29,340 nucleotides of DNA from an uncultured Candidatus Saccharibacteria bacterium (GCA_964527845.1 CAZGQU010000002.1:1-29340); one strand, 5' to 3'; counted from the stretch's first letter, positions 12,197-29,340 are shown. The notes: generated by a model not told the origin, from the letters alone. Numbers and translations are program-made.

Positions 12197-12200
12197 ATTA

Positions 12201-12232: not shown

Positions 12233-12249
12233 GGTTTCCGCCAGCGAGA

Positions 12250-12420: not shown

Positions 12421-12654
12421 TACGAAGCTCCTTTTTAGTTTGTAAAGAGCCCGCTTGTTAGTGGTTCTTGCCGTACCATGTTGTTCGCAAAACGGGTTAA
12501 GCGCATGGATGTATTTGCGGCCCACGTTGAGGTTATGTAAACATACAAATCTAATTCATGCAATAAATTGCTACTAAATACTATTTATTAAGTGCTTATG
12601 TTTTCTTGACGTTCATCGTACAATGTAGGCAGACATAATGCTATGGAGGATATA

Positions 12655-13230: not shown

Positions 13231-13244
13231 CAATCTGAATAATC

Positions 13245-13871: not shown

Positions 13872-13946
13872 AATATTCAAAAATTCTGGATTTTAAGCAA
13901 TTTTTAGTTAATACTACATGCTATAGCTAAATTCAGGAGTTTCTGA

Positions 13947-16724
13947 GTGTCATCTGACCGGGCGGACAGATTATCAAGAGTCTTTACCTGTCTATTAGTT
14001 GTTTCTTTCTTTATTTTTACAGCAGTATCGTCTTCTTCAGCCCAGCAATCATCGAATAACTCGGTTAATTGGCTCGCTGGCACACCTACAATTCAAGAAG
14101 AATCACCAGTCGATACATGGAAAAATCCAGATAATCATGACTGCACACAAACCAAATTGCCTGTCATGCGAAATATGCTTGTAAAGACTGAAGAATATTG
14201 CGTGGTACAAACGGCAGCTGGCTTGATGGACACCGAGGCTCAAGTTTTGCAGCCTAATGGTCAAGCTGTGGCCTACCCTATAGAGCGGCGAACGCCGGGA
14301 GGTAGTCCGTACTTTAGAGTGATACCCAACCAGGCCGGTGTCTTATATATAAAACCTTCTGATGGCATGGGGTCAAACATAGGATATTATAAGAATTTTT
14401 ATTCACACCTTAAGTTTGATTACCATTATGGAAGTCCGCGGTATTATGTCGATGCCGTGCCAACAGATTGGTTTCGAAAACCAGACAATAGTCTGATGCA
14501 ATTTAATCCATATGGAACACTAGCTTTCTCGCAAAACGGCCGGTATTTTGTGATAGATTCACTGTTTAATGGTTTCGCAAAAATTGATATTTTGAACTAC
14601 AACGTGCAATATATTGCCGATACGCTGCCGAGAACTAATGGCAAAGGACTGTTGCAAGCAAATGTTGCGATAGATAATGGCGGTAAGTGGGTGGCCATAT
14701 CTTACAATGCACCGGGTAGCTGGGGAGAAAAATATTTTAAACTTATTGATACAGAAGCATGTACAAGCCAAACACAACAGGGTTTTTATACAGTACTTAA
14801 TTACACTTGTGCAACGCGCAATGCGTTGAATGAAACACAGAATAAGATTCCAGGACTACGCAATATTACAAAGGTACGGTTTGTTAATGAACGTACGATA
14901 ATGTTTACTGTCTCGACACAAACAAGCGGGGATATTACATACACCCAATATAGTATGACAGCGGCTGGCCAAAAGCGCAGCCTTTTGCAATATTTGGCAA
15001 TGGGAGATTCTTATATATCGGGTGAAGGTGCTTATAACTATAGGCTAGGCACAGATACAGAGCGTAACATGTGTCATCAATCGCTCGTATCGTATCCGTA
15101 TTTGTTAAGCAGTAGCTTTGAGTCGTTTGCCGACGTGGCATGTTCTGGTGCAGAAATCTTGAATATTGTTGGAAATGAAAACGATCCTGCGCATACTGCA
15201 CAATTGACTGAAGATGGTAAGCGGGTAGGGCCAACATTTACAGAAGAAAATACTGCAAAATTAACATACCTGCCGGGCTATGCAGCGCAAAGTATTTTTG
15301 TAAGATCTGATAACCCTGAGGTTATTACGCTTTCTGTTGGTGGGAATGATTTCGGTTTCGTAGATATTATCCAGTTGTGCGCTAACCCAACAAAAGAATT
15401 CTGGCAACAGGTTACTTCAGCAAGTACGTGCTACGACTCGTACGAAGAGCGATACGGTGCTATCTGGGAAATTAACGAACACTTCCTGGAGCTTAAGAAT
15501 CTTTACAGCAACCTTCGTGACACAGAAAACACTAACCGGCGACTATACGTGATTGGTTACCCGCAAATCGCTAAAGTAGATGGTGATTGCGGGCTAAATG
15601 TTCATCTGAACGCTGATGAAATTAGATTTGGCTCCGATCTCATCAGCTATATGAACAGTGTTATTAAAAAAGCTGCCGATGAAGCAGGCGCGTACTATGT
15701 GGATATAGAAGATGCATTTGTCGGTAACCGTTTGTGTGAAGGTCCAGGCAATAAAAGCGCAGTAAATGGTTTCACAATCAGCCGTACAGAAGGTCCATTA
15801 AATATTAAGGCAAGCTATCACCCCAACAAACGAGGCCATGAAATGCTGGCAGCAATGATAGCCGAGAAAACCCACAATCTTACTGCGCAGATGCCGGAAA
15901 AACCTGTGCAACAAACTAACACTTTGCCGGTTGATGCAGATTTGCCTATACTGCAAGGATACCCTCAAACAAGCGTATTTGATCGTTATGTAAATTCAGT
16001 ATTTGGTGCTGTTTCAGACGTGATGCAAGTCGGTGACACGCTCTCAGCCGAAATTCCAGAGGATGCGCAACTAAAGCCTGGTGCGCAGTTTGTGGTGGAA
16101 TTGCATTCTACGCCCGCCAATCTAGGTACCTTTACTGCCGACACTACAGGTAAACTTGCGATACATTCTGCTATACCGGCCAATACGCCACCTGGCTTCC
16201 ATACATTACATATTTATGGGCCAGATATGTTCGGCAACCAACTTGACATGCATCAGACATTTTATGTGGCTGCGAACATGAATGACTATGATGGTGATAG
16301 TGTGCCAAATGATAAAGATTCGTGTGCTATTGCGATAGAATCCGGCCATGACGTCGATGAAGACGGTATTGATGATGTATGCGATCCGCTTATTGATGAG
16401 CCACCACTAAAAGTTAGCGCGCCTACATTACATGAAGCCACAAACATTGCTGTGGCAACCAACAGCACTGAGGGCGCCATAAAGCAATCTTTCGTAACTA
16501 CGCTGCAGCCACAAAACAACAGTCGTAATGCAAAAGTGTTAGCCTCTTCAATTTCTGATTCGCAAATGCCACTTGGTGTTGCTGTGCCGTCATTGGAGAG
16601 CGATAGCAAGCCACTCGAAGGCAATGCCTCCTTCGTGACTATGGGTATAGTCGGGTTCGTTGTTGTTAATATGAGTCTGGTATTTATCCTGATACGTAGG
16701 CGAGAACATTCTACTAGTGGTTAG
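13947..16724 (+). CDS. Secreted, C-terminally membrane-anchored SGNH/GDSL hydrolase (SEST-like) with thrombospondin-3-like Ca-binding repeats, 925 aa
   Basis: Signal peptide; YLAMGDSYISGEG (block I), ACSGA (II), SVGGNDFGF (III), ASYHPN (V); DYDGDSVPNDKDSC...DVDEDGIDDVCD; C-terminal TM followed by RRR. Confidence 0.85.
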   Translation: MSSDRADRLSRVFTCLLVVSFFIFTAVSSSSAQQSSNNSVNWLAGTPTIQEESPVDTWKNPDNHDCTQTKLPVMRNMLVKTEEYCVVQTAAGLMDTEAQVLQPNGQAVAYPIERRTPGGSPYFRVIPNQAGVLYIKPSDGMGSNIGYYKNFYSHLKFDYHYGSPRYYVDAVPTDWFRKPDNSLMQFNPYGTLAFSQNGRYFVIDSLFNGFAKIDILNYNVQYIADTLPRTNGKGLLQANVAIDNGGKWVAISYNAPGSWGEKYFKLIDTEACTSQTQQGFYTVLNYTCATRNALNETQNKIPGLRNITKVRFVNERTIMFTVSTQTSGDITYTQYSMTAAGQKRSLLQYLAMGDSYISGEGAYNYRLGTDTERNMCHQSLVSYPYLLSSSFESFADVACSGAEILNIVGNENDPAHTAQLTEDGKRVGPTFTEENTAKLTYLPGYAAQSIFVRSDNPEVITLSVGGNDFGFVDIIQLCANPTKEFWQQVTSASTCYDSYEERYGAIWEINEHFLELKNLYSNLRDTENTNRRLYVIGYPQIAKVDGDCGLNVHLNADEIRFGSDLISYMNSVIKKAADEAGAYYVDIEDAFVGNRLCEGPGNKSAVNGFTISRTEGPLNIKASYHPNKRGHEMLAAMIAEKTHNLTAQMPEKPVQQTNTLPVDADLPILQGYPQTSVFDRYVNSVFGAVSDVMQVGDTLSAEIPEDAQLKPGAQFVVELHSTPANLGTFTADTTGKLAIHSAIPANTPPGFHTLHIYGPDMFGNQLDMHQTFYVAANMNDYDGDSVPNDKDSCAIAIESGHDVDEDGIDDVCDPLIDEPPLKVSAPTLHEATNIAVATNSTEGAIKQSFVTTLQPQNNSRNAKVLASSISDSQMPLGVAVPSLESDSKPLEGNASFVTMGIVGFVVVNMSLVFILIRRREHSTSG

Positions 16725-16735
16725 CTTGTATAGAG

Positions 16736-17587
16736 TTACGCCGGAGAATTTAGGATGTGTTTTGATCTTGAAAGCATGATAACGCCGGCAGCCGCCACGC
16801 ATGCACCTATTGAGGCCGCAACAATTCCAAACGCATTGATATTTACAATCTCTTCAAACAGCAAGATGCCAATTACCGCTCTTGCAAATGGACGGACAAT
16901 TTCTATTACCGGCTGTGATATGGCTAACGGGCCGCCACCATACGTGCTTTGAAGCACTACAACCGACGCAATAAGACTTACAAATAATGCATAAACTTCC
17001 CAGCTTGTAAACACATTGCCAATACCGGATTCCCATTGAAAGAATACTAATTTCACAAGTCCTGCTGAAAGTGCAAAATTACATCCAGATGCGATGCCGC
17101 CCATCGCTGCCCGCAGCTTGGGTGATGACGAACGTCGCATCAACAGTGCGCAGACGACGATAATGCTTGTGATCACAATTCCGACAACCACCCACTTTGT
17201 GCCAATAGTTGCTGCATGGCCACCATGTGGTCTGGCAGCCAAAAGTACGGCACTTAAGCCAAAACAAACTGCAAAAACCCCACCCCATTCTTTGAAACCT
17301 GCTGGTACTTTGTAATAAAAATGCAAGATCAACATCACAAATACAATATCGACTGTCAGAAGAGACTCAACTAATATAAGGGGCCCAAAATACAATGCAA
17401 TAGCATTTGTTGCAACGGCAATTACCTGGATACTTAAACCGAATAGCCACCATTTGCTTTTTAAGAGTGAGCGAATAAAGCTATGATGAAATAATTCTTT
17501 GGCATCTGGCTTGCCGGCAGCTCGTCGTTGTATAACAGCACTCAAAGCTCTGAGGAAGGCGGTGAATAGCGCGATCGCAATAACCAT
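16736..17587 (-). CDS. DMT-superfamily integral membrane transporter (NIPA/Mg-transporter-like), 283 aa
   Basis: About 9-10 TM segments; SAVIQRRAA, WWLFGL, ALYFGPLILVESLL, QSTYGGGPLAISQP. Confidence 0.75.
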   Translation of the reverse strand: MVIAIALFTAFLRALSAVIQRRAAGKPDAKELFHHSFIRSLLKSKWWLFGLSIQVIAVATNAIALYFGPLILVESLLTVDIVFVMLILHFYYKVPAGFKEWGGVFAVCFGLSAVLLAARPHGGHAATIGTKWVVVGIVITSIIVVCALLMRRSSSPKLRAAMGGIASGCNFALSAGLVKLVFFQWESGIGNVFTSWEVYALFVSLIASVVVLQSTYGGGPLAISQPVIEIVRPFARAVIGILLFEEIVNINAFGIVAASIGACVAAAGVIMLSRSKHILNSPA

Positions 17588-17664
17588 TCACCTATTGTAA
17601 TCTACCAAGCAAGATACACTAAGGCGGTCTCTGTAAGCTATAGCGGAAATGGTATACTGCAGGT

Positions 17665-18513
17665 ATGAATCAGCACAATATTCGTGAGCAAGAAAAACAG
17701 GGTAAACTTCTGACGGATAGAAGCTGGGATGAGCGTAATAAAAGTGTCGAAAAAGCTGCTGGCAAATTCCAAGAGTACATAGCAGCAGGCCCAAAACAAA
17801 AAAAGAAAAAGCCAAAACGCCTATTTGTTATTGCTCTAATCACTATACTTTTAGCTGCAACTTTGCTTGCAGTGTATTGGTTTGTCATTAAAGAAAATGT
17901 AAAATCATCTCGGCCAGTTGAATCAAAACAATCAACTAAGCAAACCGAAGCTGCAGGCAGCATAAGCACGGAGACAAAGCAGTATACATCACCCAACTTT
18001 AATTTAAGTCTAAAATATCCGGCGAATTGGAAAGTAACAGATACTGCGGGCAGCAACGTATTGATAGTTGAGTCACCAAGTTTGCTACTCACATCTGTCA
18101 CAGGTCAAAAAAGTGACGGTATTATTAGGCTGCAAATACAGAACAAAAACTATCCCATTACTGGATTTGAGAAAGGGAATGCACTTGCTGCATTGCCGTC
18201 GGAGCTTATTAAGTACACAAATCCAACACAAATGCAGCGAGCCGAAACACACTTAAGTTTTCTAACGTATGCACCGGCAATGTCTGGTATTAATGCGCTG
18301 TATATTACCGGTGACTACGGCTATCAGGCAAACCAGGCTATCCCTCAATTAGATATTAGCGCCGGAGACCCAATAGTAAGCGTACAATTTTTGCAGTGCA
18401 GTGATAAAACATGCAGTAAACCAATACCTATGGCTATAAGCAATACCAGTTGGAGCAAGCCTGAATTCAATACGCCTATTAAAAATCTACTTTCGTCGCT
18501 ATCTATTAATTAA
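17665..18513 (+). CDS. Single-pass membrane-anchored hypothetical protein, 282 aa
   Basis: Lys-rich stretch, TM at about aa 53-73, soluble domain with YTSPNFNLSLKYPANWKV and a CSDKTC pair. Confidence 0.8.
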   Translation: MNQHNIREQEKQGKLLTDRSWDERNKSVEKAAGKFQEYIAAGPKQKKKKPKRLFVIALITILLAATLLAVYWFVIKENVKSSRPVESKQSTKQTEAAGSISTETKQYTSPNFNLSLKYPANWKVTDTAGSNVLIVESPSLLLTSVTGQKSDGIIRLQIQNKNYPITGFEKGNALAALPSELIKYTNPTQMQRAETHLSFLTYAPAMSGINALYITGDYGYQANQAIPQLDISAGDPIVSVQFLQCSDKTCSKPIPMAISNTSWSKPEFNTPIKNLLSSLSIN

Positions 18514-18561
18514 TAAAACGTCAAGCTTAACATAACCACTTTTTGTAGGTATAATGTTGAC

Positions 18562-19312: not shown

Positions 19313-19352
19313 ATATAGCAGCGATTAATAGTAGTTGGAGGGAAGTTTAGCT

Positions 19353-22300
19353 TTGTTGCTAACCCGGAAACAAACAAGGACAGCACAGTCAGCAAAATAC
19401 GCGGCACGTCTGATAACAGGCGTGCTAGTGTTTGCCATAATAGTTTCTGTTGGCTGGAGCTCGCTTGTTGGTCGAGTGTACGCAGCAGATCCGCCCGTTG
19501 TAAGTAGCGTGTCTCCCTCGAGTGGTTCAGTATCAGGCGGTGACAATGTGACAATCACTGGAACAGGTTTTGTCAGCGGCGCCACTGTAAAATTTGGCGC
19601 TCAACTTAGTGACAGTGTAACTGTGGTGAATGACACTACTATTACCGCTACAGCTCCTACTAATCCGGCGTCGACGGTTGATGTAATTGTCACGAATCCC
19701 GACACGCAGCAAGGCAAGCTTGACGAAGCTTTCAGGTATCTTGGAGCGCCGCCCGGCGTATCATCAGTGGCACCAGATAATGGCGCAGAAAGTGGCGGTA
19801 CGGCAGTAACAATAGCCGGAACAAATTTTACTCCGCCGAATAGTACAACAAATACATGGTCAAATAGCGGCGCCACACTACCTAGTGGTTTGCTTGCGTC
19901 GCAGACAGCTGTTATCGGCGATACCATTTATATGTTTGGCGGTCAGGGTTCCAGCGTAATTTATTCTGCACCGGTTTCGAGCCCAACCAGCTGGACCAAC
20001 ACCGGCAAAACCCTTCCTGGCACGTATGGATATGCTTCACTAGCTGTCATTGACGATTATGTTTATTTATTTGGCGGGTGGAATGGTTCAGGATCAGGAA
20101 ATGTTATATACAGGGCTTCTGTCTCCGATCCGACCAGCTGGACTAACACTGGCGCAACATTGCCGGGCAGTTTAGGGTACTCACAGTCAGCCGTCATAGG
20201 CGACACGGTATATCTTTTTGGAGGAAGTCCAAATGCCGGCAGCTCGGCAAGCAACGTCATCTACTCTGCACCGGTTTCGAGCCCAACCAGCTGGACCAAC
20301 ACCGGCAAAACTTTACCTGGCAATTTAGGTTTTTCACAACTAGTGGTAGTAGGAAGCGCAATGTATCTTGCGGGGGGTAATTCTGGTCCAACGGCCGGAA
20401 ATACTATTTATACTGCCTCTGTAGACCACTACCGTTCCAATCAATACAACAAACCATGGATAACCAATTGGGGAACGAGTAAAAATATGGTAGACCAGTC
20501 AGCTGTTTCGTTTGGTGGTACTCCGGCGACTGATGTGACTTTTGTGAGCTCTACACAAATCACTGCTACGACATTAGGGCATGTGGCGGGTACTGAAGAT
20601 GTGACAGTGACGAATTACGATGGTCAAAGTGCAACTCTAGCGAACGGATTTACTTATAATCCTGCGCCCACAGTGAGCAGTGTAAGTTCAGTGAGTGGTT
20701 CGGTGTCAGGTGGCGATGCAGTGACCATTACCGGATCAAATTTTGTCGATGGAGCGATCGTGACAATCGGTGGGGTTGCTGCTGAGGATGTTCAGTTTGT
20801 AAATGCTACGACATTAACGGCTACGATGCCTGCAGCTGAAAGTGGCACGTATGATATGGCTGTCACTAATCCTGACGGGCAGACTGGCACACTTGCTGCA
20901 GCATACACCTACACTTTACCTCCTCCGGATATTACTAATGTTAGTCCCTCGGCTGGGCCAATTGAAGGCGGAACTGAGGTAACAATCAGTGGTACGAACT
21001 TACCGCAATGGGCCCACCGTCGCTTGTTTACAATCGATAAAAGCAAGGTCAATAGCACGTTAACAGACTTTCCGGTAGCGGTCACCATTACTGATAACAC
21101 ACTAAAGAGTATCGCCAATGGTGGCTATGTCGGGAAGTCGAACGGTGGCGATATTAAATTTGTGTTGCCGAGTGGTACAAAGCTGAGTCATGAAATCGAA
21201 AGTTACGATCCAGCAACTGGTGAGCTGGTGGCGTGGGTCAAACTTCCAAAACTATCTAATGCTGCAGATACCTTGTTCTATATGTATTACGGAAATAAGA
21301 CGGTAACTGATCAATGGGATATAAATACTACTTGGAGTAGTAAATATAGGGGAGTATGGCATTTTGACGAACCATCAGGAAACGTCAGCGACTCAACGAC
21401 AAACGCCAATACTGGTACTAATTCCAGCACAACAAGCACTACAGGAAAAATAGGAAGTGGCCGTACATTTGGCGGAGGCAGTTATATTAGCGCTGGCAAT
21501 AACTCTACTCTTAACCCTAATGCAAAAATGACGTTGTCGTTCTGGATGAAACCTACTGCTAACAATGTGAACCAGACACCTATTGGTAAATGGAATACAG
21601 GGGCTGGAACGAATAATGCATATGGTTTTACTTTGGGGCATGATGTTGCTGATAGCGGTTGGGTATTCGCCACTCAGCCGGTAGGAACTTCCTATGTGAC
21701 TGCATCAGCTCCAGCTTCTACGTATACGTATCCTGCCAACAGTTGGAGTTATATGGTGGGTGTTGCAGACGGTAGTTATATTAGAACATACAAAGATGGT
21801 GTAGAGGTTGGCACTCCTATGCCGTATAACGGAACACTCAAAACAGATTCAACGACCGATTTCATTATTGGCCGTCTCAACCTGATTTCTTCAGGCTATA
21901 ATTTTGGCGGAGTAATTGACGAGCCACGGTTACTTGGTGACTCGGTTTCCAGCGATTGGATTGCTGCAGAATATGCCAATCAAAATGACCCAAGTGCATT
22001 TTATGACGTAAGTACAGATGAAGCACTGGTTGATATGCATTTTGGGAGTACGGTTGCTGATAATATAGTCGGTGCTGATGGCACATTGGTTGCTACTGCA
22101 CCAGCGAGTTCAGAAGGACAAGTCGATGTGTCGGTAACTACCATTGATGGACAAACCGACACGCTGGCCAATGCGTATACATACTACGAAGGCGTGTTGG
22201 TTTCTAGCATAAGTCCTACCTCTGGTAGCACATCGGGGGGTGATACTGTCACCATAAGTGGCGCTGGATTTGCAACTGGCGCAACAGTTAAGTTCGGCAA

Positions 22301-25300
22301 CGCTGTGGCCACAGATGTAACTGTAATAAACGACACAACTATTACTGCAACCACACCAGCCAACGAAGCCTATTCAGCTGATGTGTTTGTTATCAATCCA
22401 GATAATCAAGTTAGTGTGTTGAGCGGCGGTTACACATACACGAATCCCAGCCCTGCAATAACAGGCATTAGTCCCAATAGAGGTCCCCCGGATGGCGGCA
22501 CAACAGTGTCAATAACCGGCACCGGGTTTATTCCGCAAAACACTTCAACAAACACTTGGACTAATACAGGAGCTACCTTACCTGTAAATTCTAATTATGC
22601 TGCAATTGCAGTGGTCGGCGATACAGTCTATCGGTATGGGGGCCAAAGCTCTAATGCGATTCTGTCCGCTCCCGTTTCCGATCCTACAACTTGGACGAAT
22701 ACCGGTAAGTCACTTCCAGGTAATAAAGGCGGCGCTCAGCTCGCAATTATCGGTACTAAGATATATTTGTTTGGCGGCTATACCTCTAGTAGTGTTGGGA
22801 GTGTCACTGCTAGTATTTACTCTGCGTCAATTTCCGATCCAACCACTTGGACCGACACAGGCGCAACATTACCAGCCGGTCGCGCTATTGGCCAGTTGGC
22901 AGTAATTGGAGATACGATTTATTGGTACGGCGGAAGTAGTAGCTCAGCACCAACCGGATCAATATTCTCTGCCCCCGTTTCCGATCCTACAACTTGGACG
23001 AATACCGGTAAGTCACTTCCAGCCGGTCAATATAATGCCCAGATCGCAGTAATTGGTGATACTGTGTACCTCTTCAGCGGCACTAATACCACGAATAGAA
23101 TTTATTCTGCATCAACCAGTGACCCAACCACTTGGACTAGTGCTGGTACGCTTCCAGCCGGAATATCAGGTGCGCAACTTTTGACTATTGGCGATACCAT
23201 GTACTTACTCGGCGGTGGTAGTAGTACGATTTATTCTGCATCAACCAGTGACCCAACCACTTGGACCACGTCGGGACAAACTTTGCCGGCAAATCTTGTC
23301 GGCTCACAGGCTGCAGTTATAGGTAATACTGCGTATCTTTTTGGTGGAAGTGCTAATGTTATCTACTCTGCTAGCCTGAATCATTATCGTCCAAACCAAT
23401 ACAACAAACCATGGATAACCAATTGGGCAACCAATATAAGTAATGATCAGTCAACTGTAACGTTTGATGGCACTACAGCGACGAATATCAATTTTGTCAG
23501 CCCGACAGAGATTACTGCTACCACGCCTGCGCATGCAAGTGGAGATGTCGATGTAGTAGTCGCAAACTATGACGGCGAGAGCGATACATCTGCAAATGGC
23601 TATACATATCTAACGCCTATAACACTTACTTCTGTAACACCCAGCTCCGGAGGTGCTGGAGGTGGCAATAGCGTAACTATCACCGGTACCAACTTTGCCG
23701 ACGGTGCAACGGTGACTTTTGATGGCGTTGAAGCGACAAACGTAGAAGTAGTCAATAGCACCACTATAACCGCGACTACACCGGCTCATGCAGCAGGACT
23801 TGTAGACGTCACTGTGACTAACACCAGTGGGAGTTCAGCTACGCTAAGTAATGGTTATCGCTTTAACGCATCTCCGATAATCACAAGTGTTTCGCCGTCA
23901 GCCGGCGATATAGCCGGCGGGACTAACGTTACAATTACCGGTACCGGTTTCCAGTCGCCAAAAGACGTGGCGGCGATCGCCAACGGTGGCACACCTAGTT
24001 CAAACGGCAACCAGCCTACCATGCTTACCTATGCTTTTGATAATGACGAAAGCACCTACTGGGGGAGTGCCTGGTATAGCGGTGGCACACCGTCTCCGTA
24101 CATTGCTTCGACATTTGACCAGACGTACACTGTTGATCACATTTCCTGGAAAGGTTGCTTCATTTATACGAACGGCAACTGGACACCGCCGTCCAGAATC
24201 TATCTTTATCAGAACGGCAGCTGGGTGCAGTATACCGGCTATTCCACTGCGGCAGTCTATGCTGGCGACTTCTTCCTAAGTACACCTCAAGCGGCCGATG
24301 GCGTGATGTTCCAGTGGCCGAATTACGGCAACGCAGTAGGCTGTAATACCATTTCTGCCTACCAGACAGTACCTGCAGGCAGCGGCGTTACTTTCGGCGG
24401 TAGTCCGGCGACTAATGTACACTTTGTCAACGACACCACTATTACCGCGACAACACCTGCTCATGCTCGCGGCGCTGTAGATGTCGTTATGACTGTTCCG
24501 GACGGCCAGACCGCCACAGTAACCGATGGTTATACGTATACCGACATTCCAAGAATCGACAGTATCAGCCCAACATCCGGCTCTGCAAATGGTGGCACTG
24601 CTGTAACGATAACCGGAAATAACTTTAAGTCAGGAGACAACGTGACCATAGGTGGCATTTTGGCGACTGATGTAGTGATCGTGAACAGCACGACAATTAC
24701 CGTAACCACACCAGCTAACACACCCGGCCCTGTAGATGTATCAGTTACTGATCCCGATAACAACACCGCAACTTTAGCCAGCAGTTTCACCTACACCGCA
24801 CTGACGCCAACGGTTTCAAATTTCTCACCTGCGTCTGATTTCGTCGAAGGCGGTCAAGAAGTAACAATTACGGGAAGTAATTTTGATCCAGGGCGTGTTA
24901 AGCAAATAACTATCACCAATACAAGTAGTACAAATTATACGAATTATCCTGTAAAGCTTACGCTTGATACGGCTGCATTGATAACGGCAGGTAAGTTGCG
25001 CTCTGACTGCGGTGATTTGCGGATAAAGGCAAGCAACAAAACGACAAATTTACCCTATAACGTTGCTGCAGGCTGCAATACCAGTAGTACTGAAGTTTGG
25101 GTACAGCTACCTGCACTTTCGGGCGATAGCTCGGCTACTATCCATATGACATATGGCAATTCTTTGCTGACAGATAACAGTATGCCTAGTAGTATCACAA
25201 CACCTCCAGACAGCAATGTGCCAACGATAACATACGGTAGTGAGCAATGGATTATGGGCGTAACATTTGGAGGTGTACCGGCTGTTATTAGCGCAGTAAC

Positions 25301-28300
25301 TTCTACTGTCATAACTACTGTCGCACCTGAACACAGCGCAGCAAATACAGCAGTCGTAGCAACAAGCTTTTACGGGCCATCTGCAACTGCGTCACAACAA
25401 TTTAAGTATATGCCGAGTGCGTACGCTTTTACTAATACATCGCTTGTTAGGGCGGCTAGTCAGCCAGGTGAACTTATACTTGAACCGCGGGACAGTGAAG
25501 GAAATCCGATTACCGCAAGTTATGACATTGTGTTCACATTAGAAAGTGCTTCAACAGGCGGTTTGTTTGCGACGACCGAAAATGGCAGCTATGGAATAAA
25601 TACAATAACGCTCCCGGCGGGACAACCTAATGTAAGTTTCTTCTATAAAGATTCAACCGAAGGCAATCCTACAATTACCGCAACTGGCCTAGCAGATGTC
25701 AAAGCCACTCAAGAGGCAACTATAACTTCGAAATACCGACTGTTGGTAACCGGCGTATCTTCGCCTGTTAAAGCAGGAGTTCCGAGCTCAGTAACTGTAC
25801 AGGCGGTAGACTATGCTGGCCAGCCGCTGGCAGATTACACTGGTACAGTAGCGTTTACCTCAACTGACAGTGAGGCGGTATTGCCTGGCAACTATACCTT
25901 CACAACCGATGCTAATGGGCAGCATACGTTCGTTAATGCCGTAACGATGCGTACTGTTGGCACTTGGTGTGTAGCAGCGACCGACACAAGCAACTCGATT
26001 ATTACTGGTCAGCAATGTAGCATTACTGTCGTTGCCGCTGACGCAGTGACGCCAGCAAAATTAGCAGTGATTACCGAGCCTCAGACTTTTGCGGCGACGA
26101 ACGCTTCGAATGCAATTACAGTTCAAGCCCAAGGGACAGACAATACACCTTCGCCAGTATTCACCGACACCAAAGTATATGTAAATACCGACTCGACAAC
26201 AGGAGAGTTCTCACTTGACGGTAGCGATTGGACAAGCACTATTCCGTTCGAGGTTACCATACCAGCTGGCATAAGCTCGGTAAATGTATTTTATCGTGAC
26301 AGAACTGCAGGTACGCCAGAGCTGACGTTTGCGGATACCGATAACGAAGGCACACCTGCTGATTTAGTTGATACGTCACAAACCGAAACAGTTGTTGCTG
26401 GAGAGCCAGCCCAACTACATATTGAAGGAGCGGCTCAACTGACGGCTGGCCAATATGGAGCGTACAGCGTTGTGTTGCAAGATATATATGGCAACGTAGC
26501 CGTGGCTGAAAGTGCCATAGACGCTTACTTTACGGCAACATCTGCGACAACAACATTCAGTGCTAGCTCGTCGGGGGTAGACGCAAGCAATTCGTATCAC
26601 GCAACCGTTGGCGTAGGGGAGAATGGTGCAGTTGTGTATGTGGCTGATACAACCACCGGCTCAACAGATATTATGGCAAGCGATGCATCACCAGCTGATG
26701 GCTCAACGGGTTTGGATGACGATGTGCTATCAGTTGGTATAATCGCTAATACTGCGCTTACAATTGTAGGTTTGCCGCAGTCGGCTGAGCTGCCTGTACA
26801 TAGTGAACGACAACTTACATTCCAGTTCCAGGATACATATGGAAACGTTGCGCCGCTTAGCAGTAGCAGCACTATTGCATACGATTCTACTAGCCCGACA
26901 GGTCAATTTACAATTTCGACACCGGGCTGGAATACGAACTTACCTGCCTCGTATCCGATAAGTGCTGGTACGAGCGTAACGACTATACAGTACCAGGATT
27001 TTACTGTTGGCACACCGACAGTCACGGCAAACATGGCGGGTATGACAGGGGGCAGTATTGACCTTACGATTGTGCCCGGTAGCCTTCATCATTTTGATTT
27101 TTCACCTGCTAACCAAGAATTAATTGCCGGCCAGCCGGCTGCTTTAGAGATTACAGCTTATGACCAATGGAATAATGAGACAACGAGTGGAAGTGACCTG
27201 ACGATTAATCTTGCTTCGACAAGTGGTAATGGAGAATTCTCATTGTCTAATTCGCCTTGGAGTTCGGTGAATTCCGTAACGCTCCCTGCAAATGCCAAAA
27301 GTGCCACACTATTTTACCGCGACACAACCGCCGGCACGCCAACAGTAACAGCGACTGATGCTGCTAACTCTCAGCATGCAGGAAGCGATACTCCAACGGT
27401 TGTTGGAGCAGACCCCATGGAACTTTACTTTGTTTCTGATCAGCAAGTTATTGCCGCCAGTACACCATCTCGTGAAATTACGATCGGGCTAAAAGATCAA
27501 TACGGTAACCCAACTCGTGCTATTGCTGATTTTGCTGTTACATTAACTTCCTCAAGTTCGACAGGAGAATTTTCGATTGATGGCAGTAGTAACTGGTCGG
27601 CGGATAAAGCGGTGACGTTTAACGCGAATGCTTTTACAGCGTATGTATATTTCAGGGATAGCGCAACGGGTACGTATACGCTTAATGTAGCGAGTGAAGA
27701 TTATGGAGCCGCGGCGCAACAGATTCAAGTCGAACCGGGAGTAGTAGGCAAGCTATCTATGAGCACCAATGCTACCATGACTGCCGGAAGCATATATCCA
27801 GTAACTGTTGAAACACAGACGGCAGACAGTATTCGGGCTGCCGTGGCACAGGACACTACGATTAATATATCGGGACCAGGTGAGTTTTCGTTGTCAGATA
27901 CAGCGTGGTCACCTATTACAAACGTAGTCGTCACCCAGGGCCAAGCTGAGAAAGCAGTATACTTTAAGCCGACACTTGCTGGTGCCGGAACGCTCACGGC
28001 TGCGGAGACACCAAGTGAAAATTGGGAGGATGGCCAGGCGAACGTAAACATTACGGCCGGACCGATTTACAGCTTAAACTTTACGGCCATACCGTCAGCG
28101 ATAACTGCTTCTGTGCCGTCTGACGTCTTTACAGTAAGTGCGCGTGATGTCTATGGGAATGTGACGATCGTTAACGAAGATACAACAGTGTATCTGTATA
28201 GTACTCAGACCGAGGGAGCTTTTGCGTCAAGCAGCAGCGGGCCATGGACGGCTGAATCAATCGTTATTACAGCTGGTAGTAGTAGCGCAGATTTTTACTA

Positions 28301-29340
28301 CCAGACCTCAAAAGCGGAAGCAATAACTCTACGAGTGAGCGATCACAATCCAATAGATACACCTGATATTGATATCGTTAACGATTCGGTAAATCTTACA
28401 GTTGATGCCGGTGCTGCATCGAAATTAATATTTGCGACTTTGCCGCAAACCATTCAGATCGGTCAAAGCTCGCAGCAAATCAAAATATCGTTGCGTGATG
28501 AAGGCAACAACGAAGCGCACGCCACCAGTGCATTGACAGTAAACCTGGCGTCAAGCTGCACGACAGGCGCATTTTCATTAACTGCTGGTGGTTCATCGAT
28601 TACCCAACTAACGATTCCGACAGGTGAAAGCGATGGTTTTTTCTACTACAAAGCTAATGAGATAGGTGATTGCACAATCACGGTAAGCGCAGCAGATCTC
28701 ACATCGGCGAACCAGACCGAAACGATTACCACACTAGCACCAGTACCAACCAGCCTGAGCATTGATACTGCCCCGCAAACACTTGTTGCTGGCCAAACCT
28801 CGGCGCCAGTATCGGTAAGTCTGAAAGATACGCAAGGTAATGTAATAGCTGCAAATACAACTATTACTGCCTCGCTTACCACCTCAAGTATAAATGGTAC
28901 GCTCCTGCCTGAAACGTTGACGTTCCAGCCTGGTGATATGACCAAAACATTTGTATATCGGGATGGACAAGTTGGCTCTCCAGTAGTGACGGTAAGCGCA
29001 GCAGGTCTTACCTCCGCAAATCAAACCGAAACGATTACTGCTGGTACGCTTACAAAGCTTAACTTAAGCTCACTAGATACGATTGTTACGGCTGGCCAAG
29101 TCGCTACTTTTACTGCGCAACTACAAAACGAATATGGTGCGCCATATGTTGCTACTTCAGATACCACAGTGTATCTTCACACAACAGGTGCTGGAGTAAT
29201 CTCTGACGATAGTAGTACAATTAGCTCGCTCGTCATACCAACTGGACAAAGTACTAAAACATTTGACTATACTCAAACTACCGCTGGCAGCGCCACTCTG
29301 ACTGCTTCAGATATATCCACCCCACCAGAAAGCCCTGATA
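19353..29340 (+). CDS. Giant multidomain surface protein/adhesin (at least 3329 aa, runs off the window): signal peptide, 10 IPT/TIG domains with inserted Kelch, DUF2341, LamG and F5/8-like modules, then about 12 Ig-like repeats
   Basis: Manual translation of frame +3 from TTG 19353 shows no stop to 29340. It begins MLLTRKQTRTAQSAKYAARLITGVLVFAIIVSVGWSSLVGRVYA-ADPPVVSSVSPSSG. It is missing from the track, presumably because it has no stop in the window. Confidence 0.93.
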   Translation, partial: MLLTRKQTRTAQSAKYAARLITGVLVFAIIVSVGWSSLVGRVYAADPPVVSSVSPSSGSVSGGDNVTITGTGFVSGATVKFGAQLSDSVTVVNDTTITATAPTNPASTVDVIVTNPDTQQGKLDEAFRYLGAPPGVSSVAPDNGAESGGTAVTIAGTNFTPPNSTTNTWSNSGATLPSGLLASQTAVIGDTIYMFGGQGSSVIYSAPVSSPTSWTNTGKTLPGTYGYASLAVIDDYVYLFGGWNGSGSGNVIYRASVSDPTSWTNTGATLPGSLGYSQSAVIGDTVYLFGGSPNAGSSASNVIYSAPVSSPTSWTNTGKTLPGNLGFSQLVVVGSAMYLAGGNSGPTAGNTIYTASVDHYRSNQYNKPWITNWGTSKNMVDQSAVSFGGTPATDVTFVSSTQITATTLGHVAGTEDVTVTNYDGQSATLANGFTYNPAPTVSSVSSVSGSVSGGDAVTITGSNFVDGAIVTIGGVAAEDVQFVNATTLTATMPAAESGTYDMAVTNPDGQTGTLAAAYTYTLPPPDITNVSPSAGPIEGGTEVTISGTNLPQWAHRRLFTIDKSKVNSTLTDFPVAVTITDNTLKSIANGGYVGKSNGGDIKFVLPSGTKLSHEIESYDPATGELVAWVKLPKLSNAADTLFYMYYGNKTVTDQWDINTTWSSKYRGVWHFDEPSGNVSDSTTNANTGTNSSTTSTTGKIGSGRTFGGGSYISAGNNSTLNPNAKMTLSFWMKPTANNVNQTPIGKWNTGAGTNNAYGFTLGHDVADSGWVFATQPVGTSYVTASAPASTYTYPANSWSYMVGVADGSYIRTYKDGVEVGTPMPYNGTLKTDSTTDFIIGRLNLISSGYNFGGVIDEPRLLGDSVSSDWIAAEYANQNDPSAFYDVSTDEALVDMHFGSTVADNIVGADGTLVATAPASSEGQVDVSVTTIDGQTDTLANAYTYYEGVLVSSISPTSGSTSGGDTVTISGAGFATGATVKFGNAVATDVTVINDTTITATTPANEAYSADVFVINPDNQVSVLSGGYTYTNPSPAITGISPNRGPPDGGTTVSITGTGFIPQNTSTNTWTNTGATLPVNSNYAAIAVVGDTVYRYGGQSSNAILSAPVSDPTTWTNTGKSLPGNKGGAQLAIIGTKIYLFGGYTSSSVGSVTASIYSASISDPTTWTDTGATLPAGRAIGQLAVIGDTIYWYGGSSSSAPTGSIFSAPVSDPTTWTNTGKSLPAGQYNAQIAVIGDTVYLFSGTNTTNRIYSASTSDPTTWTSAGTLPAGISGAQLLTIGDTMYLLGGGSSTIYSASTSDPTTWTTSGQTLPANLVGSQAAVIGNTAYLFGGSANVIYSASLNHYRPNQYNKPWITNWATNISNDQSTVTFDGTTATNINFVSPTEITATTPAHASGDVDVVVANYDGESDTSANGYTYLTPITLTSVTPSSGGAGGGNSVTITGTNFADGATVTFDGVEATNVEVVNSTTITATTPAHAAGLVDVTVTNTSGSSATLSNGYRFNASPIITSVSPSAGDIAGGTNVTITGTGFQSPKDVAAIANGGTPSSNGNQPTMLTYAFDNDESTYWGSAWYSGGTPSPYIASTFDQTYTVDHISWKGCFIYTNGNWTPPSRIYLYQNGSWVQYTGYSTAAVYAGDFFLSTPQAADGVMFQWPNYGNAVGCNTISAYQTVPAGSGVTFGGSPATNVHFVNDTTITATTPAHARGAVDVVMTVPDGQTATVTDGYTYTDIPRIDSISPTSGSANGGTAVTITGNNFKSGDNVTIGGILATDVVIVNSTTITVTTPANTPGPVDVSVTDPDNNTATLASSFTYTALTPTVSNFSPASDFVEGGQEVTITGSNFDPGRVKQITITNTSSTNYTNYPVKLTLDTAALITAGKLRSDCGDLRIKASNKTTNLPYNVAAGCNTSSTEVWVQLPALSGDSSATIHMTYGNSLLTDNSMPSSITTPPDSNVPTITYGSEQWIMGVTFGGVPAVISAVTSTVITTVAPEHSAANTAVVATSFYGPSATASQQFKYMPSAYAFTNTSLVRAASQPGELILEPRDSEGNPITASYDIVFTLESASTGGLFATTENGSYGINTITLPAGQPNVSFFYKDSTEGNPTITATGLADVKATQEATITSKYRLLVTGVSSPVKAGVPSSVTVQAVDYAGQPLADYTGTVAFTSTDSEAVLPGNYTFTTDANGQHTFVNAVTMRTVGTWCVAATDTSNSIITGQQCSITVVAADAVTPAKLAVITEPQTFAATNASNAITVQAQGTDNTPSPVFTDTKVYVNTDSTTGEFSLDGSDWTSTIPFEVTIPAGISSVNVFYRDRTAGTPELTFADTDNEGTPADLVDTSQTETVVAGEPAQLHIEGAAQLTAGQYGAYSVVLQDIYGNVAVAESAIDAYFTATSATTTFSASSSGVDASNSYHATVGVGENGAVVYVADTTTGSTDIMASDASPADGSTGLDDDVLSVGIIANTALTIVGLPQSAELPVHSERQLTFQFQDTYGNVAPLSSSSTIAYDSTSPTGQFTISTPGWNTNLPASYPISAGTSVTTIQYQDFTVGTPTVTANMAGMTGGSIDLTIVPGSLHHFDFSPANQELIAGQPAALEITAYDQWNNETTSGSDLTINLASTSGNGEFSLSNSPWSSVNSVTLPANAKSATLFYRDTTAGTPTVTATDAANSQHAGSDTPTVVGADPMELYFVSDQQVIAASTPSREITIGLKDQYGNPTRAIADFAVTLTSSSSTGEFSIDGSSNWSADKAVTFNANAFTAYVYFRDSATGTYTLNVASEDYGAAAQQIQVEPGVVGKLSMSTNATMTAGSIYPVTVETQTADSIRAAVAQDTTINISGPGEFSLSDTAWSPITNVVVTQGQAEKAVYFKPTLAGAGTLTAAETPSENWEDGQANVNITAGPIYSLNFTAIPSAITASVPSDVFTVSARDVYGNVTIVNEDTTVYLYSTQTEGAFASSSSGPWTAESIVITAGSSSADFYYQTSKAEAITLRVSDHNPIDTPDIDIVNDSVNLTVDAGAASKLIFATLPQTIQIGQSSQQIKISLRDEGNNEAHATSALTVNLASSCTTGAFSLTAGGSSITQLTIPTGESDGFFYYKANEIGDCTITVSAADLTSANQTETITTLAPVPTSLSIDTAPQTLVAGQTSAPVSVSLKDTQGNVIAANTTITASLTTSSINGTLLPETLTFQPGDMTKTFVYRDGQVGSPVVTVSAAGLTSANQTETITAGTLTKLNLSSLDTIVTAGQVATFTAQLQNEYGAPYVATSDTTVYLHTTGAGVISDDSSTISSLVIPTGQSTKTFDYTQTTAGSATLTASDISTPPESPD
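19830..20500 (+). repeat. Kelch-like repeat insert 1 (4 blades) inside IPT2
   Basis: Four copies of WTNTGxTLP...xAVIGDTVYLFGG...IYSAxVSxPTS. Identical 47-bp DNA copies at 19965-20011 and 20265-20311. Confidence 0.8.
21003..22028 (+). other. DUF2341 + LamG (concanavalin-A-like) insert inside IPT4
   Basis: WAHRRLFTID...LTDFPV...GDIKF...LSHEIESY...VAWVKLP...YMYYGN, then GVWHFDE...MTLSFWMKP...WSYMVGV...TYKDG...FGGVIDEPR...DWIAAEYANQ. Confidence 0.8.
22530..23450 (+). repeat. Kelch-like repeat insert 2 (6 blades) inside IPT6
   Basis: Six repeats of the same motif. Identical DNA copies at 22671-22719/22974-23022 (49 bp) and 23100-23137/23229-23266 (38 bp). Confidence 0.8.
23952..24383 (+). other. 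F5/8 type C (discoidin/CBM32-like) insert inside IPT8
   Basis: YAFDNDESTYW...YIASTFDQTYTVDHISW...NGSWVQ; about 144 aa, aromatic-rich, one Cys pair. Confidence 0.6.
24885..25256 (+). other. Second DUF2341-like insert (no LamG) inside IPT10
   Basis: KQITITN...YTNYPVKLTLDT...GKLRSDCGDLRI...LPY...TEVWVQLP...IHMTYGN. Confidence 0.75.
25413..29340 (+). repeat. About 12 tandem 100-115 aa Ig-like (invasin/Big-like) stalk repeats
   Basis: Recurring KLxFxTxPQTxxAGxxS...ITVxLxDxYGN...TGxFS...W...TIPAG...FxYRDTTAGTPTVTA...QTETIT. Confidence 0.75.

What the first reader, a model, noticed from the sequence alone, without database searches (positions are those of the whole stretch)
19491..25410. Strictly alternating empty/loaded IPT scaffold: every second Ig-like domain displays a different passenger from the same loop
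In IPT1, 3, 5, 7 and 9 the loop between TGxxF and VxF/IG is 5 residues (VSGAT, VDGAI, ATGAT, ADGAT, KSGDN). In IPT2, 4, 6, 8 and 10 that same loop is replaced by whole domains: Kelch x4 (about 223 aa), DUF2341+LamG (about 342 aa), Kelch x6 (about 307 aa), F5/8-C-like (about 144 aa) and DUF2341 (about 124 aa). The IPT then resumes with VxFGG...ITATTPA...YTY. Passengers are nested rather than strung in series, so they would project sideways from a continuous IPT rod, with an intact spacer domain between each. Inference: a natural modular display system with an [empty IPT + loaded IPT] unit and exchangeable binding cassettes for host range. I do not know of this architecture being described; novelty is unverified.
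Basis: partly seen in the sequence, partly recalled or inferred. Interest (0 to 1): 0.85.

Follow-up and report, generated by a model that had tools for sequence, protein, structure and literature searches.

The report
Binding domains nested in alternating IPTs
A giant envelope protein of an ultrasmall Saccharibacteria-type bacterium carries five sugar-binding-type domains, each spliced into the same loop of every second Ig-like rod domain, and the rod is the outer part of a membrane histidine-kinase sensor; the splicing principle is known from other bacterial adhesins, but this regular form and its link to a kinase were not found described in the papers I searched.

Summary
Residues 53-2026 of the 3335-aa open-ended ORF hold ten IPT/TIG domains. 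The odd ones are intact. The even ones are cut at one profile position, the B-C loop, by Kelch x4, DUF2341+LamG, Kelch x6, a CBM32/F5-8C-like module and DUF2341.

AlphaFold2 models and structural alignments to plexin, MET and SGBP-B IPT tandems indicate that the halves of IPT8 and IPT10 re-form whole IPTs in series with their neighbours. For IPT6 the support is indirect.

The layout is a family trait. It is about 89% alternating over 114 domain junctions in 19 relatives, mostly Patescibacteria, but not absolute. Scaffold-only phylogeny shows that the evolutionary unit is [intact IPT -> loaded IPT].

The principle of ligand-binding domains budding from "split" Ig-like domains is already published for RTX adhesins, so this is a new variant, not a new kind.

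It ends in TM helices, a His-box and an HATPase_c domain, as in its syntenic ortholog. The protein is therefore a giant sensor histidine kinase of at least about 4640 aa with an ectodomain of about 4100 aa.

The scan earlier noted a propeller nested in a TIG-like domain in a Methanoregula genome (e1-2513029).

The parts
19335..29339 (+). N-terminal 3335 aa of the giant gene (first possible start TTG; 3' end open at contig end). It continues on contig C34 of the same genome (L003:2-3892, 1296 aa).
19413..19478 (+). N-terminal hydrophobic segment (res 27-48), preceded by basic residues and followed by VYA/AD. It is either a signal anchor or a cleavable signal peptide.
   Evidence: (hydropathy)
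19491..19742 (+). IPT1, intact
19752..19832 (+). IPT2 N-half (strands A, B)
19833..20489 (+). Passenger 1: Kelch, four blades (four Y-x-F/A-G-G motifs)
20490..20660 (+). IPT2 C-half (strands C-G)
20667..20915 (+). IPT3, intact
20925..21011 (+). IPT4 N-half
21012..22037 (+). Passenger 2: DUF2341 + Laminin_G_3 (concanavalin-like)
22038..22187 (+). IPT4 C-half
22194..22445 (+). IPT5, intact
22452..22532 (+). IPT6 N-half
22533..23459 (+). Passenger 3: six-bladed Kelch propeller plus the conserved return linker (HYRPNQYNKPWITNW)
23460..23612 (+). IPT6 C-half
23616..23870 (+). IPT7, intact
23874..23954 (+). IPT8 N-half
23955..24380 (+). Passenger 4: CBM32 / F5-8 type C-like module
24381..24542 (+). 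IPT8 C-half
24549..24800 (+). IPT9, intact
24807..24887 (+). IPT10 N-half
24888..25259 (+). Passenger 5: DUF2341
25260..25412 (+). IPT10 C-half (most diverged; HMM i-E 1.2e-4)
25428..29339 (+). Stalk: tandem ~100-aa beta-rich repeats with no Pfam family. Big_1/Invasin_D3-like is a lead only. At least 15 copies are counted together with contig C34.

Best explanation
The region encodes the first about 2000 residues of the ectodomain of a giant membrane sensor histidine kinase (at least about 4640 aa) of a Saccharimonadales-type Patescibacterium.

Shown:
- Ten IPT/TIG domains lie in series.
- In every second one the loop between strand B (ending TGxxF) and strand C (VxFGG) is replaced by a whole domain: a Kelch propeller, DUF2341+LamG, a CBM32-like module or DUF2341.
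- The chain then returns and completes the IPT fold. The rod stays continuous and the passenger hangs off it by two adjacent connections.
- The building block that evolution copies, loses and moves is the pair [intact IPT -> loaded IPT].
- Downstream lie at least 15 Ig-like stalk repeats, a Ser/Asn/Gly-rich linker, a TM helix, a conserved His-box, a TM hairpin and an HATPase_c domain.

Inferred:
- The B-C loop lies at the N-terminal pole of an IPT. Each passenger therefore sits at the elbow with the preceding intact IPT, which acts as spacer and perhaps as support.
- The passengers are lectin-like or peptide-binding heads that bind surface glycans or proteins of the partner (host) cell.
- Occupancy, clustering or pulling on this multivalent rod modulates the cytoplasmic kinase. 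The protein would then work as an adhesin and contact receptor in one chain.
For: Split and complementarity:
- The N-halves match profile positions 2 to 28-42 and the C-halves 23-34 to 84 in all five loaded domains. Pfam TIG gives the same half hits.

Fold, model 1 (IPT5-IPT6[Kelch]-IPT7):
- Mean pLDDT 93.1, pTM 0.81.
- Strands A and B lie before the insert and C, C', E, F, G after it, the same elements as in the flanking intact IPTs except the short A' strand, which DSSP does not call in IPT6.
- The insert is a six-bladed Kelch propeller, Z 27.

Fold, model 2 (IPT7 to IPT10):
- Plexin A1 IPT3-6 aligns 299 residues over model residues 1-591 (Z 15.8).
- MET IPT1-2 aligns 151 residues over 1-308 at 3.4 A.
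- SGBP-B aligns 166 residues over 310-598 at 4.1 A.
- Both split IPTs therefore superpose as whole IPTs next to their neighbours. Insert 8 matches CBM32 and fucolectin modules at Z 8-9.3.

Family trait:
- The same pattern occurs in about 10 homologs, in 8 of the fetched genome loci (9 ORFs with split IPTs among 96, on 8 loci: 7 in MAGs labelled Saccharimonadales, Saccharibacteria, Parcubacteria, Moraniibacteriota and Bdellovibrionales, plus one MAG named only 'bacterium BP8.bin61') and in 19 of 134 further cluster representatives.
- Junction counts are SF 53, FS 48, SS 7, FF 6.

Unit:
- Scaffold-only tree; identity tables; cassette orders K4|DL|K6|F58|D in the window against K6|K6|DL|F58|D in the syntenic ortholog.

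Kinase:
- The window end and contig C34 are colinear with the ortholog P0002.
- HATPase_c E 4.7e-18. HisKA 25.4 bits, with an invariant His in 7 proteins. Three TM helices.
- Single uninterrupted ORFs carry both the IPT block and the kinase tail (L009 and L011; P0002, P0010 and P0091; P0013, P0034 and P0102).
Against: - No ligand, binding assay or expression data exist.
- Model coordinates could not be inspected. Contacts between the halves, and between passenger and spacer, are inferred from alignments, DSSP and confidence values.
- Model 2 is only moderately confident (pLDDT 73.6, pTM 0.49; the start of insert 8 is below 50).
- The junction between the window and C34 is not assembled. The last 39 nt of the window recur at C34 623-661, so the repeat number is unknown.
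- The HisKA match is just under Pfam's cut-off, and the His-box is separated from the ATPase domain by a TM hairpin, an arrangement I have not seen described.
- No response regulator is adjacent.
- Some relatives with the same display block end in TM helices plus a CarboxypepD_reg domain instead of a kinase. The display block therefore does not need a kinase.
- It is not known how a signal would travel along about 4100 residues.
Confidence: 0.6

Rival explanations
1. Pure fibrillar adhesin or envelope scaffold. The nested domains stick the cell to a partner or matrix, and the kinase-like tail serves only as a membrane anchor or is catalytically dead.
For: - Relatives P0111 and P0074 carry the same display block on a kinase-free tail (TM helices + CarboxypepD_reg).
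- TIG is a recognised stalk domain of fibrillar adhesins (PMC9210967).
- No response regulator lies next to the gene.
- HisKA is under the Pfam cut-off.
Against: The His-box histidine and the N, G1, F and G2 boxes of the ATPase domain are conserved in all seven kinase-tailed proteins aligned, at about 46-64% overall identity (HATPase_c 55-66 bits). That argues for selection on catalysis.
Confidence: 0.25
2. A sensor of free or polymeric environmental glycans for nutrient sensing, like the propeller-bearing hybrid two-component sensors of Bacteroides, rather than a cell-contact receptor.
For: - The passengers are of carbohydrate-binding types: CBM32-like, LamG/concanavalin-like and Kelch.
- The tail is a kinase.
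Against: - An ectodomain of about 4100 aa with a long Ig-like stalk is far more than is needed to meet soluble ligands.
- The gene is patchy: 1 of 24 other genera of the family searched have a TIG match. That pattern suits partner-specific surface proteins.
- The genome is about 0.8 Mb, of a lineage whose cultured members are episymbionts (abstracts listed).
Confidence: 0.2
3. The alternation has no structural meaning. It is only the footprint of tandem duplication of a two-domain unit.
For: - The unit [intact -> loaded] is what is inherited and moved.
- Loaded IPTs can be direct neighbours (7 SS junctions, including two with inserts of 322-545 aa) and intact ones can be too (6 FF).
Against: - 89% alternation is kept over proteins as low as about 40% identical and across several Patescibacteria classes.
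- 5 of the 7 SS junctions involve the small (~210 aa) inserts, as expected if large heads need a spacer.
- pTM 0.81 for the three-IPT model suggests a defined arrangement of spacer and head.
Confidence: 0.35
4. The domains are strung in series. The 'halves' are degenerate partial IPTs that do not re-form one fold.
For: Linear domain annotation (Pfam) lists TIG, Kelch, TIG in order and cannot tell the difference.
Against: - The profile coverage of the halves is exactly complementary.
- The strand complement in both AF2 models is complete, apart from the short A' strand that DSSP does not call in IPT6, with pLDDT about 89-97 on the N-half strands of IPT6 and IPT8.
- Two-IPT and four-IPT crystal structures superpose across the inserts.
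Confidence: 0.03

Closest known systems
Split-domain display of ligand-binding domains in RTX adhesins (MpIBP, V. cholerae FrhA, A. hydrophila AhLap; PMC12077191, PMC10865825, PMC5550230; Graham et al. 2024 Proteins 92:933, cited there, not held)
   Same: An Ig-like rod domain is interrupted by a whole binding domain whose two ends are adjacent. The chain returns to finish the rod domain. The head projects sideways, and intact extender domains lie between loaded ones. The heads include carbohydrate-binding modules.
   Different: - There the scaffold is a BIg-type domain left after its first strand. Here it is an IPT/TIG domain left after strand B.
- There, two or three loaded domains are irregularly spaced near the C-terminal tip. 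Here there are five in a regular two-domain period.
- There the protein is a type I secreted Gram-negative adhesin with RTX repeats and an N-terminal retention module. Here it is a Patescibacterial membrane protein ending in a histidine kinase, with no RTX match.
Integrin beta subunit: betaI (vWA) domain nested in the Ig-like hybrid domain, itself nested in PSI. This is my own recollection; it was also named as closest known by earlier scan note e1-2513029.
   Same: A binding head is inserted in a loop of an Ig-like sandwich, so that movement of the head and of the scaffold are coupled. The protein is a transmembrane receptor.
   Different: It has a single nested head, is eukaryotic, and has no periodic array and no kinase in the same chain. 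The exact loop was not checked here.
Plexin / MET / RON receptors
   Same: A beta-propeller head and a stalk of IPT domains lead to one TM helix and a cytoplasmic signalling domain. Plexin A1 IPT3-6 and MET IPT1-2 are the best structural matches of the IPT rod.
   Different: There the propeller (Sema) is N-terminal and in series, not nested. The signalling domain is a tyrosine kinase or GAP. The resemblance is architectural analogy, and only the IPT domains are shared.
Bacterial sensor kinases with extracytoplasmic propellers: Bacteroides hybrid two-component sensors with Reg_prop propellers + Y_Y_Y Ig-like domain, and Ser/Thr kinases with Kelch or NHL sensors (own knowledge; Atlas cluster 'Pkinase + Kelch')
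   Same: A propeller and an Ig-like module sit outside and a kinase sits inside.
   Different: Their sensor domains have a few hundred residues. They have no rod, no nested heads and no Ig-like stalk of about 100 nm.
Giant IPT/TIG fibrillar surface proteins (TIG as stalk domain, PMC9210967) and single nested cases (P0017, P0018; Methanoregula LVIVD propeller in a TIG-like domain, e1-2513029)
   Same: The scaffold family is the same. In P0017 and P0018 the break falls at the same profile position (28-35), with LamG or DUF2341 passengers.
   Different: Those are long uninterrupted IPT runs with one insert, or one insert about every eighth domain. They have no two-domain period.

Membership tests
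IPT/TIG domain (Pfam PF01833, E-set Ig-like) | Sequence match above the curated cut-off | tested here: met
   424 bits, 12 stretches. Five full-length and seven half matches on the DNA, all over the cut-off.
IPT/TIG domain (Pfam PF01833, E-set Ig-like) | Seven/eight-strand sandwich superposable on solved IPTs, for the split copies too | tested here: met
   VIA-align: 5l7n_A 299 residues over model 1-591; 7mo7_E 151 residues over 1-308 at 3.4 A; 6d2y_A 166 residues over 310-598 at 4.1 A. The IPT6 strand complement in model 1 lacks only a separately called A'. Contacts were not inspected directly.
Split-domain ligand display (as defined for RTX adhesins) | An Ig-like domain is interrupted by a complete domain and completed afterwards | tested here: met
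Split-domain ligand display (as defined for RTX adhesins) | The projected domain binds a ligand | not testable with these tools
   Only fold and family types are known: CBM32-like Z 8-9.3; Laminin_G_3 and Kelch.
RTX adhesin (type I secreted, LapA/MpIBP type) | C-terminal RTX nonapeptide beta-roll with T1SS signal, and an N-terminal retention module | tested here: not met
   No RTX/HemolysinCabind or retention-module match in the 3335 aa or in the C34 part. The C-terminus is TM helices plus HATPase_c.
Two-component sensor histidine kinase | HATPase_c catalytic domain with N, G1, F and G2 boxes | tested here: met
   PF02518 E 4.7e-18, 66 bits against a 26.4-bit cut-off. The boxes are conserved in 7 proteins.
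Two-component sensor histidine kinase | HisKA/DHp domain with phospho-acceptor histidine | tested here: inconclusive
   PF00512 25.4 bits against a 26.9-bit cut-off, partial (2-31 of 66). The His in C-A-H-F/Y-L-R-T-P is invariant, but it is separated from the ATPase domain by a TM hairpin and a His-less second helix.
Two-component sensor histidine kinase | Phosphotransfer to a cognate response regulator | not testable with these tools
   Eight Response_reg matches in the genome (seven over the Pfam cut-off), none on contig C2 or C34.
Kelch beta-propeller | Kelch repeats forming a closed propeller | tested here: met
   PF24681 73 bits for insert 6. The model is a six-bladed propeller, Z 25-27 to LZTR1, KLHL12 and SAKe6. 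The four-blade insert 2 (56 bits) was not modelled.
F5/8 type C / CBM32 (galactose-binding-like) | Sequence match above cut-off and a jelly-roll fold | tested here: inconclusive
   PF00754 16.8 bits against 28.2; 22.2 bits in the ortholog. Fold Z 8-9.3 to 2j22_A, 4zxe_A, 4a42_B, 2v72_A and 1k12_A, but on a model part with pLDDT 34-73.
Fibrillar adhesin (stalk + adhesive domain + anchor) | [quoted passage not shown] | tested here: inconclusive
   The stalk (IPT plus at least 15 Ig-like repeats) and a membrane anchor are present. Adhesive function of the heads is untested.

The most novel reading that the evidence does not exclude
A new class of bacterial contact receptor: a fibrillar multi-lectin adhesin and a histidine kinase in one polypeptide. 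Five laterally displayed, evolutionarily shuffled binding heads on an IPT rod would report attachment to the partner cell, through clustering or tension on a stalk of about 4100 aa, directly to two-component signalling in an episymbiotic Patescibacterium.
Probability: 0.3. Interest if true: 0.85.

Novelty: new variant of a known kind. Interest (0 to 1): 0.62.

Why it matters
- How ultrasmall episymbiotic bacteria recognise and hold on to their partner cells is largely unknown (abstract of 10.1101/2024.11.25.624915). A patchily distributed giant protein with five different lectin-type heads wired to a kinase is a concrete candidate for partner recognition and contact signalling.
- For protein architecture, the split-domain way of displaying binding heads is not peculiar to RTX adhesins of Gram-negative bacteria. 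It has been used with another Ig-like scaffold, another loop and a regular two-domain period.
- Linear domain annotation hides this layout. Paired half-domain matches are a simple way to find such heads.
- The continuous rod with side-mounted, replaceable heads is also a natural template for multivalent display scaffolds.

Tried and rejected
I could not measure contacts between the halves or between head and spacer, and relied on DSSP, pLDDT/pTM and VIA-align ranges.
- Foldseek against PDB, AFDB clusters and the ESM Atlas with model 1 found no entry that reproduces the whole IPT-[IPT+Kelch]-IPT arrangement. TM by query was at most about 0.5, so only parts of the model were matched.
- Foldseek aligned about 540 columns to outer-arm dynein heavy chains (8glv_DA, 7k58_C). 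The literature describes that N-terminal region as a propeller followed by two Ig folds, which is serial, so I dropped it as a precedent.
- DNA repeats in the gene are only short Kelch-blade and stalk repeats of 38-92 nt, so there is no sign of recent cassette conversion.
- No paper in the library combines IPT/TIG, Kelch and Patescibacteria, or Saccharibacteria, histidine kinase and Kelch. This shows absence from that library only.
- Graham et al. 2024 is not held.
- The integrin paper I opened did not state the loop of the hybrid domain, so that comparison stays a recollection.
- Self-BLAST of the stalk gave nothing. A motif-seeded HMM was needed.
- Rfam at gathering threshold found nothing in the window.

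Full report
WHAT IS THERE

The window is contig C2 of a 0.79-Mb, 117-contig genome that is 89.6% complete. Its closest named relatives are Candidatus Saccharimonadales/Saccharibacteria MAGs. The ORF 19335..29339 (+) is open for 3335 aa and runs off the contig. After a basic stretch and a 21-residue hydrophobic segment (residues 27-48) the first IPT starts at residue 53.

THE OBSERVATION

The motif ending in TGxxF occurs exactly ten times. An HMM built from the five uninterrupted domains finds three classes of match:
- Five full matches at residues 53-136, 445-527, 954-1037, 1428-1512 and 1739-1822.
- Five N-terminal pieces covering profile positions 2 to 28-42.
- Five C-terminal pieces covering positions 23-34 to 84.

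These classes alternate strictly along the protein. Pfam's own TIG model, run on the DNA, gives the same whole and half matches.

The pieces between the halves are as follows:
- Kelch with four blades.
- DUF2341 + Laminin_G_3.
- Kelch with six blades.
- A module with only a weak F5/8 type C match (E 0.0075, below cut-off).
- DUF2341.

DO THE HALVES MAKE ONE DOMAIN?

Model 1 covers residues 954-1512 and used an alignment of 17 homologous units.
- Mean pLDDT is 93.1 and pTM is 0.81.
- The intact IPT5 shows strands at 2-7, 10-12 and 18-24, then 31-34, 40-46, 49-53, 60-67 and 73-83.
- The split IPT6 shows 88-93 and 104-110, then the insert, then 421-424, 430-436, 439-443, 450-457 and 463-472.
- Strands A and B therefore lie before the insert and C, C', E, F, G after it. 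Block-mean pLDDT is 91-97 on the N-half strands.
- The insert is a six-bladed Kelch propeller, Z 25-27 to LZTR1, KLHL12 and designed SAKe6 propellers.

Model 2 covers residues 1428-2030 with only five aligned sequences. It is weaker: pLDDT 73.6 and pTM 0.49. A Foldseek-independent structural search of it gave these matches:
- Plexin A1 IPT3-IPT6: 299 residues aligned over model residues 1-591, Z 15.8.
- MET IPT1-IPT2: 151 residues over 1-308 at 3.4 A.
- A MET fragment: 161 residues over 85-395.
- SGBP-B: 166 residues over 310-598 at 4.1 A.

These alignments are only possible if split IPT8 and split IPT10 superpose as whole IPTs in tandem with their intact neighbours. In the same search insert 8 (model residues 114-252) matches CBM32, fucose-binding and fucolectin modules at Z 8-9.3.

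I could not read model coordinates. Direct contacts were not measured.

IS IT A FAMILY FEATURE?

- Of the 120 listed giant IPT proteins from a word-indexed search, about ten share the [loaded, intact] period, always broken at profile positions 28-34. Most of the others are uninterrupted runs of 20-60 IPTs.
- Two unrelated giants use the same loop without the period. P0017 has one LamG insert among 34 IPTs. P0018 has DUF2341-bearing inserts of about 310-380 aa about every eighth IPT.
- A scan of one genome per species fetched 73 loci. Nine of the 96 long IPT-bearing ORFs, on eight of those loci, carry split IPTs. Seven of these loci lie in MAGs labelled Ca. Saccharimonadales, Ca. Saccharibacteria, Parcubacteria, Ca. 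Moraniibacteriota and, on four contigs, Bdellovibrionales; the eighth is a MAG named only 'bacterium BP8.bin61'. The remaining loci, mostly Acidobacteriota, are plain IPT runs.
- An exhaustive HMMER search with one loaded unit found 355 cluster representatives at E <= 1e-30. Among the best 150, 19 of the 134 new ones carry split IPTs, again mostly alternating (FS 32, SF 32, FF 9, SS 5).
- Over 19 family proteins the junction counts are SF 53, FS 48, SS 7 and FF 6, which is 89% alternating. Five of the seven loaded-loaded junctions involve the small ~210-aa inserts.
- Among 40 relatives' genomes, only one other, in a different genus of the same family, has any TIG match. It lies in a 6950-aa open frame with the same mixture of whole and half matches. 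The gene is therefore accessory and patchy.

WHAT IS THE UNIT OF EVOLUTION?

P0002 is 64% identical over the best local alignment and sits in the same neighbourhood (sugar transferase, Wzy_C, LexA-like, nadD-like, CBS, AspRS, TPR). Its cassette order is Kelch6 | Kelch6 | DUF2341+LamG | F5/8C | DUF2341. The window has Kelch4 | DUF2341+LamG | Kelch6 | F5/8C | DUF2341.

The scaffold halves around the LamG cassette of the window resemble those around the LamG cassette of P0002 more than those at the same ordinal position: 70% against 41% for the N-halves and 52% against 38% for the C-halves.

I built a tree from scaffold residues only (27 + 51 aa, inserts excluded; 79 domains of 11 proteins). It shows the following:
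- The label 'split' needs 3 changes against 26.5 in shuffles (0 of 500 shuffles as low).
- 37 of 42 split scaffolds form one group (SH-aLRT 84), whatever they carry.
- For three of the four passenger types, the intact IPT of the window pairs with the intact IPT that precedes the same passenger type in P0002 (SH-aLRT 89-94). The four that precede Kelch-loaded IPTs form one unresolved cluster (SH-aLRT 80).

So [intact IPT -> loaded IPT] is inherited, lost and moved as one block. Over longer times, different passengers have come to occupy one lineage of split scaffolds. The tree has few columns and many unresolved forks. The clustering is robust, but the deep order is not.

THE REST OF THE PROTEIN

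Residues 2027-3335 match no Pfam family. A motif-seeded HMM finds at least 15 copies of a ~100-aa beta-rich repeat. Weak leads point to Big_1/Invasin_D3-type Ig domains.

The homologs end in HisKA + HATPase_c. Searching the window's own genome with the tail of P0002 shows that the window's last 113 residues match P0002 3301-3413. Contig C34 starts at about P0002 3422 with a 1296-aa open frame. That frame contains the following:
- More stalk repeats.
- A Ser/Asn/Gly-rich linker.
- A TM helix at 878-896.
- A His-box (C-A-H-F-L-R-T-P; HisKA 25.4 bits, just under the cut-off).
- Two further TM helices at 1000-1018 and 1037-1055.
- A His-less helical segment.
- HATPase_c (E 4.7e-18).

The His-box histidine and the N, G1, F and G2 boxes are conserved in seven proteins. 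Single ORFs carrying both the IPT block and the kinase tail are seen directly in L009 and L011, in P0002, P0010 and P0091, and in P0013, P0034 and P0102.

The junction itself is not assembled. The last 39 nt of the window recur inside C34, which indicates a repeat-induced break.

No response regulator lies on either contig. Relatives P0111 and P0074 carry the same display block on a tail of TM helices plus CarboxypepD_reg instead.

HOW IT MOST LIKELY WORKS

Shown: a continuous IPT rod whose every second domain carries a complete binding-type domain nested in the B-C loop, followed by an Ig-like stalk, a membrane span and a histidine kinase.

Inferred from the canonical IPT topology and the models' strand order: strand B runs back towards the N-terminal pole. 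The passenger therefore emerges next to the linker to the preceding intact IPT, which would act as spacer and possibly as a support. This would account for the co-inheritance of the pair and for the rarity of adjacent large heads.

Inferred from the domain types: the heads bind glycans or peptides on another cell's surface.

Whether the N-terminal hydrophobic segment is cleaved is open. The window has small residues at -3 and -1 (VYA). Three relatives (P0010, P0034, P0091) also have Ala at -1. If it is cleaved, the display block is the distal tip of a fibre anchored by the kinase's TM helix. If it is not, the ectodomain is a loop tethered at both ends.

Speculative: multivalent binding clusters the receptors or pulls on the stalk and thereby changes kinase output.

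COMPARISON WITH WHAT IS KNOWN

[quoted passage not shown] A crystal structure covers one such pair, and AlphaFold is used to recognise them.

The present case shares that principle. It differs in five ways:
- Scaffold family: IPT/TIG instead of BIg.
- Insertion site: after strand B instead of after the first strand.
- Regularity: a two-domain period with five heads.
- Organism and export route: no RTX or T1SS features.
- The kinase tail.

Other analogies:
- Integrin beta's hybrid/betaI nesting is an older eukaryotic analogy (my recollection, and note e1-2513029).
- Plexin and MET are architectural analogues: propeller, IPT stalk, TM helix and cytoplasmic signalling domain.
- Propeller-bearing bacterial sensor kinases are functional analogues on a much smaller scale.

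I found no paper in the searchable library describing IPT scaffolds with nested heads in Patescibacteria, or adhesin-sized histidine-kinase ectodomains. This is absence from that library only.

VERDICT

The two-domain unit is supported as an evolutionary module. The claimed categorical novelty is reduced to a new variant of the published split-domain display. 'Strictly alternating' holds for this protein but is a strong tendency, not a rule, in the family. The most interesting addition is that the display rod belongs to a giant sensor histidine kinase.

Noticed in passing
L003:2-3892 (contig C34 of the same genome): The kinase tail has an odd layout that is conserved in seven proteins. The His-box sits between TM2 and a TM3/TM4 hairpin. 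The helix next to the ATPase domain has Tyr where the phospho-acceptor His would be.
   Followed up: partly
window 19833-20489: This is a Kelch insert with only four blades. Inserts of about 195-240 aa recur in relatives and are the ones most often found in directly adjacent loaded IPTs. Whether four Kelch blades close into a propeller was not modelled.
   Followed up: partly
window 29301-29339 and L003:623-661: The last 39 nt of the window are identical to an internal stretch of contig C34. The assembly broke inside a stalk repeat, so the number of stalk repeats in the real gene is unknown. C34 also holds a short run of N (XXXX in the translation).
   Followed up: yes
window 11910-18561: Relative to the syntenic locus of ortholog P0002, where AspRS is directly followed by the TPR gene, the window carries about 6.6 kb of extra genes. 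These include a 925-aa protein with an SGNH/GDSL lipase domain (13947-16724) and a PsbP-like protein (17665-18513).
   Followed up: no
window 1-29340: No Rfam family reaches its gathering score anywhere in the window.
   Followed up: partly
L003:3945-5381: The gene after the kinase encodes a CarboxypepD_reg-domain protein. Kinase-less relatives (P0111, P0074) carry a CarboxypepD_reg domain at their own C-terminus, and the P0002 locus has a CarboxypepD_reg protein three genes downstream of the kinase. These proteins may be functionally linked.
   Followed up: no
L010, L012, L013, L019: Four contigs of one MAG labelled Bdellovibrionales each carry a giant paralog with alternating loaded and intact IPTs, up to seven units. 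This is either a predatory bacterium using the same display rod or a binning error.
   Followed up: no
model m2781f49fd25f (window 22194-23870): Foldseek aligned about 540 columns of the IPT-Kelch-IPT model to the N-terminal region of outer-arm dynein heavy chains (8glv_DA, 7k58_C, 7k5b_C). The literature describes that region as Kelch propeller(s) followed by two Ig folds.
   Followed up: partly
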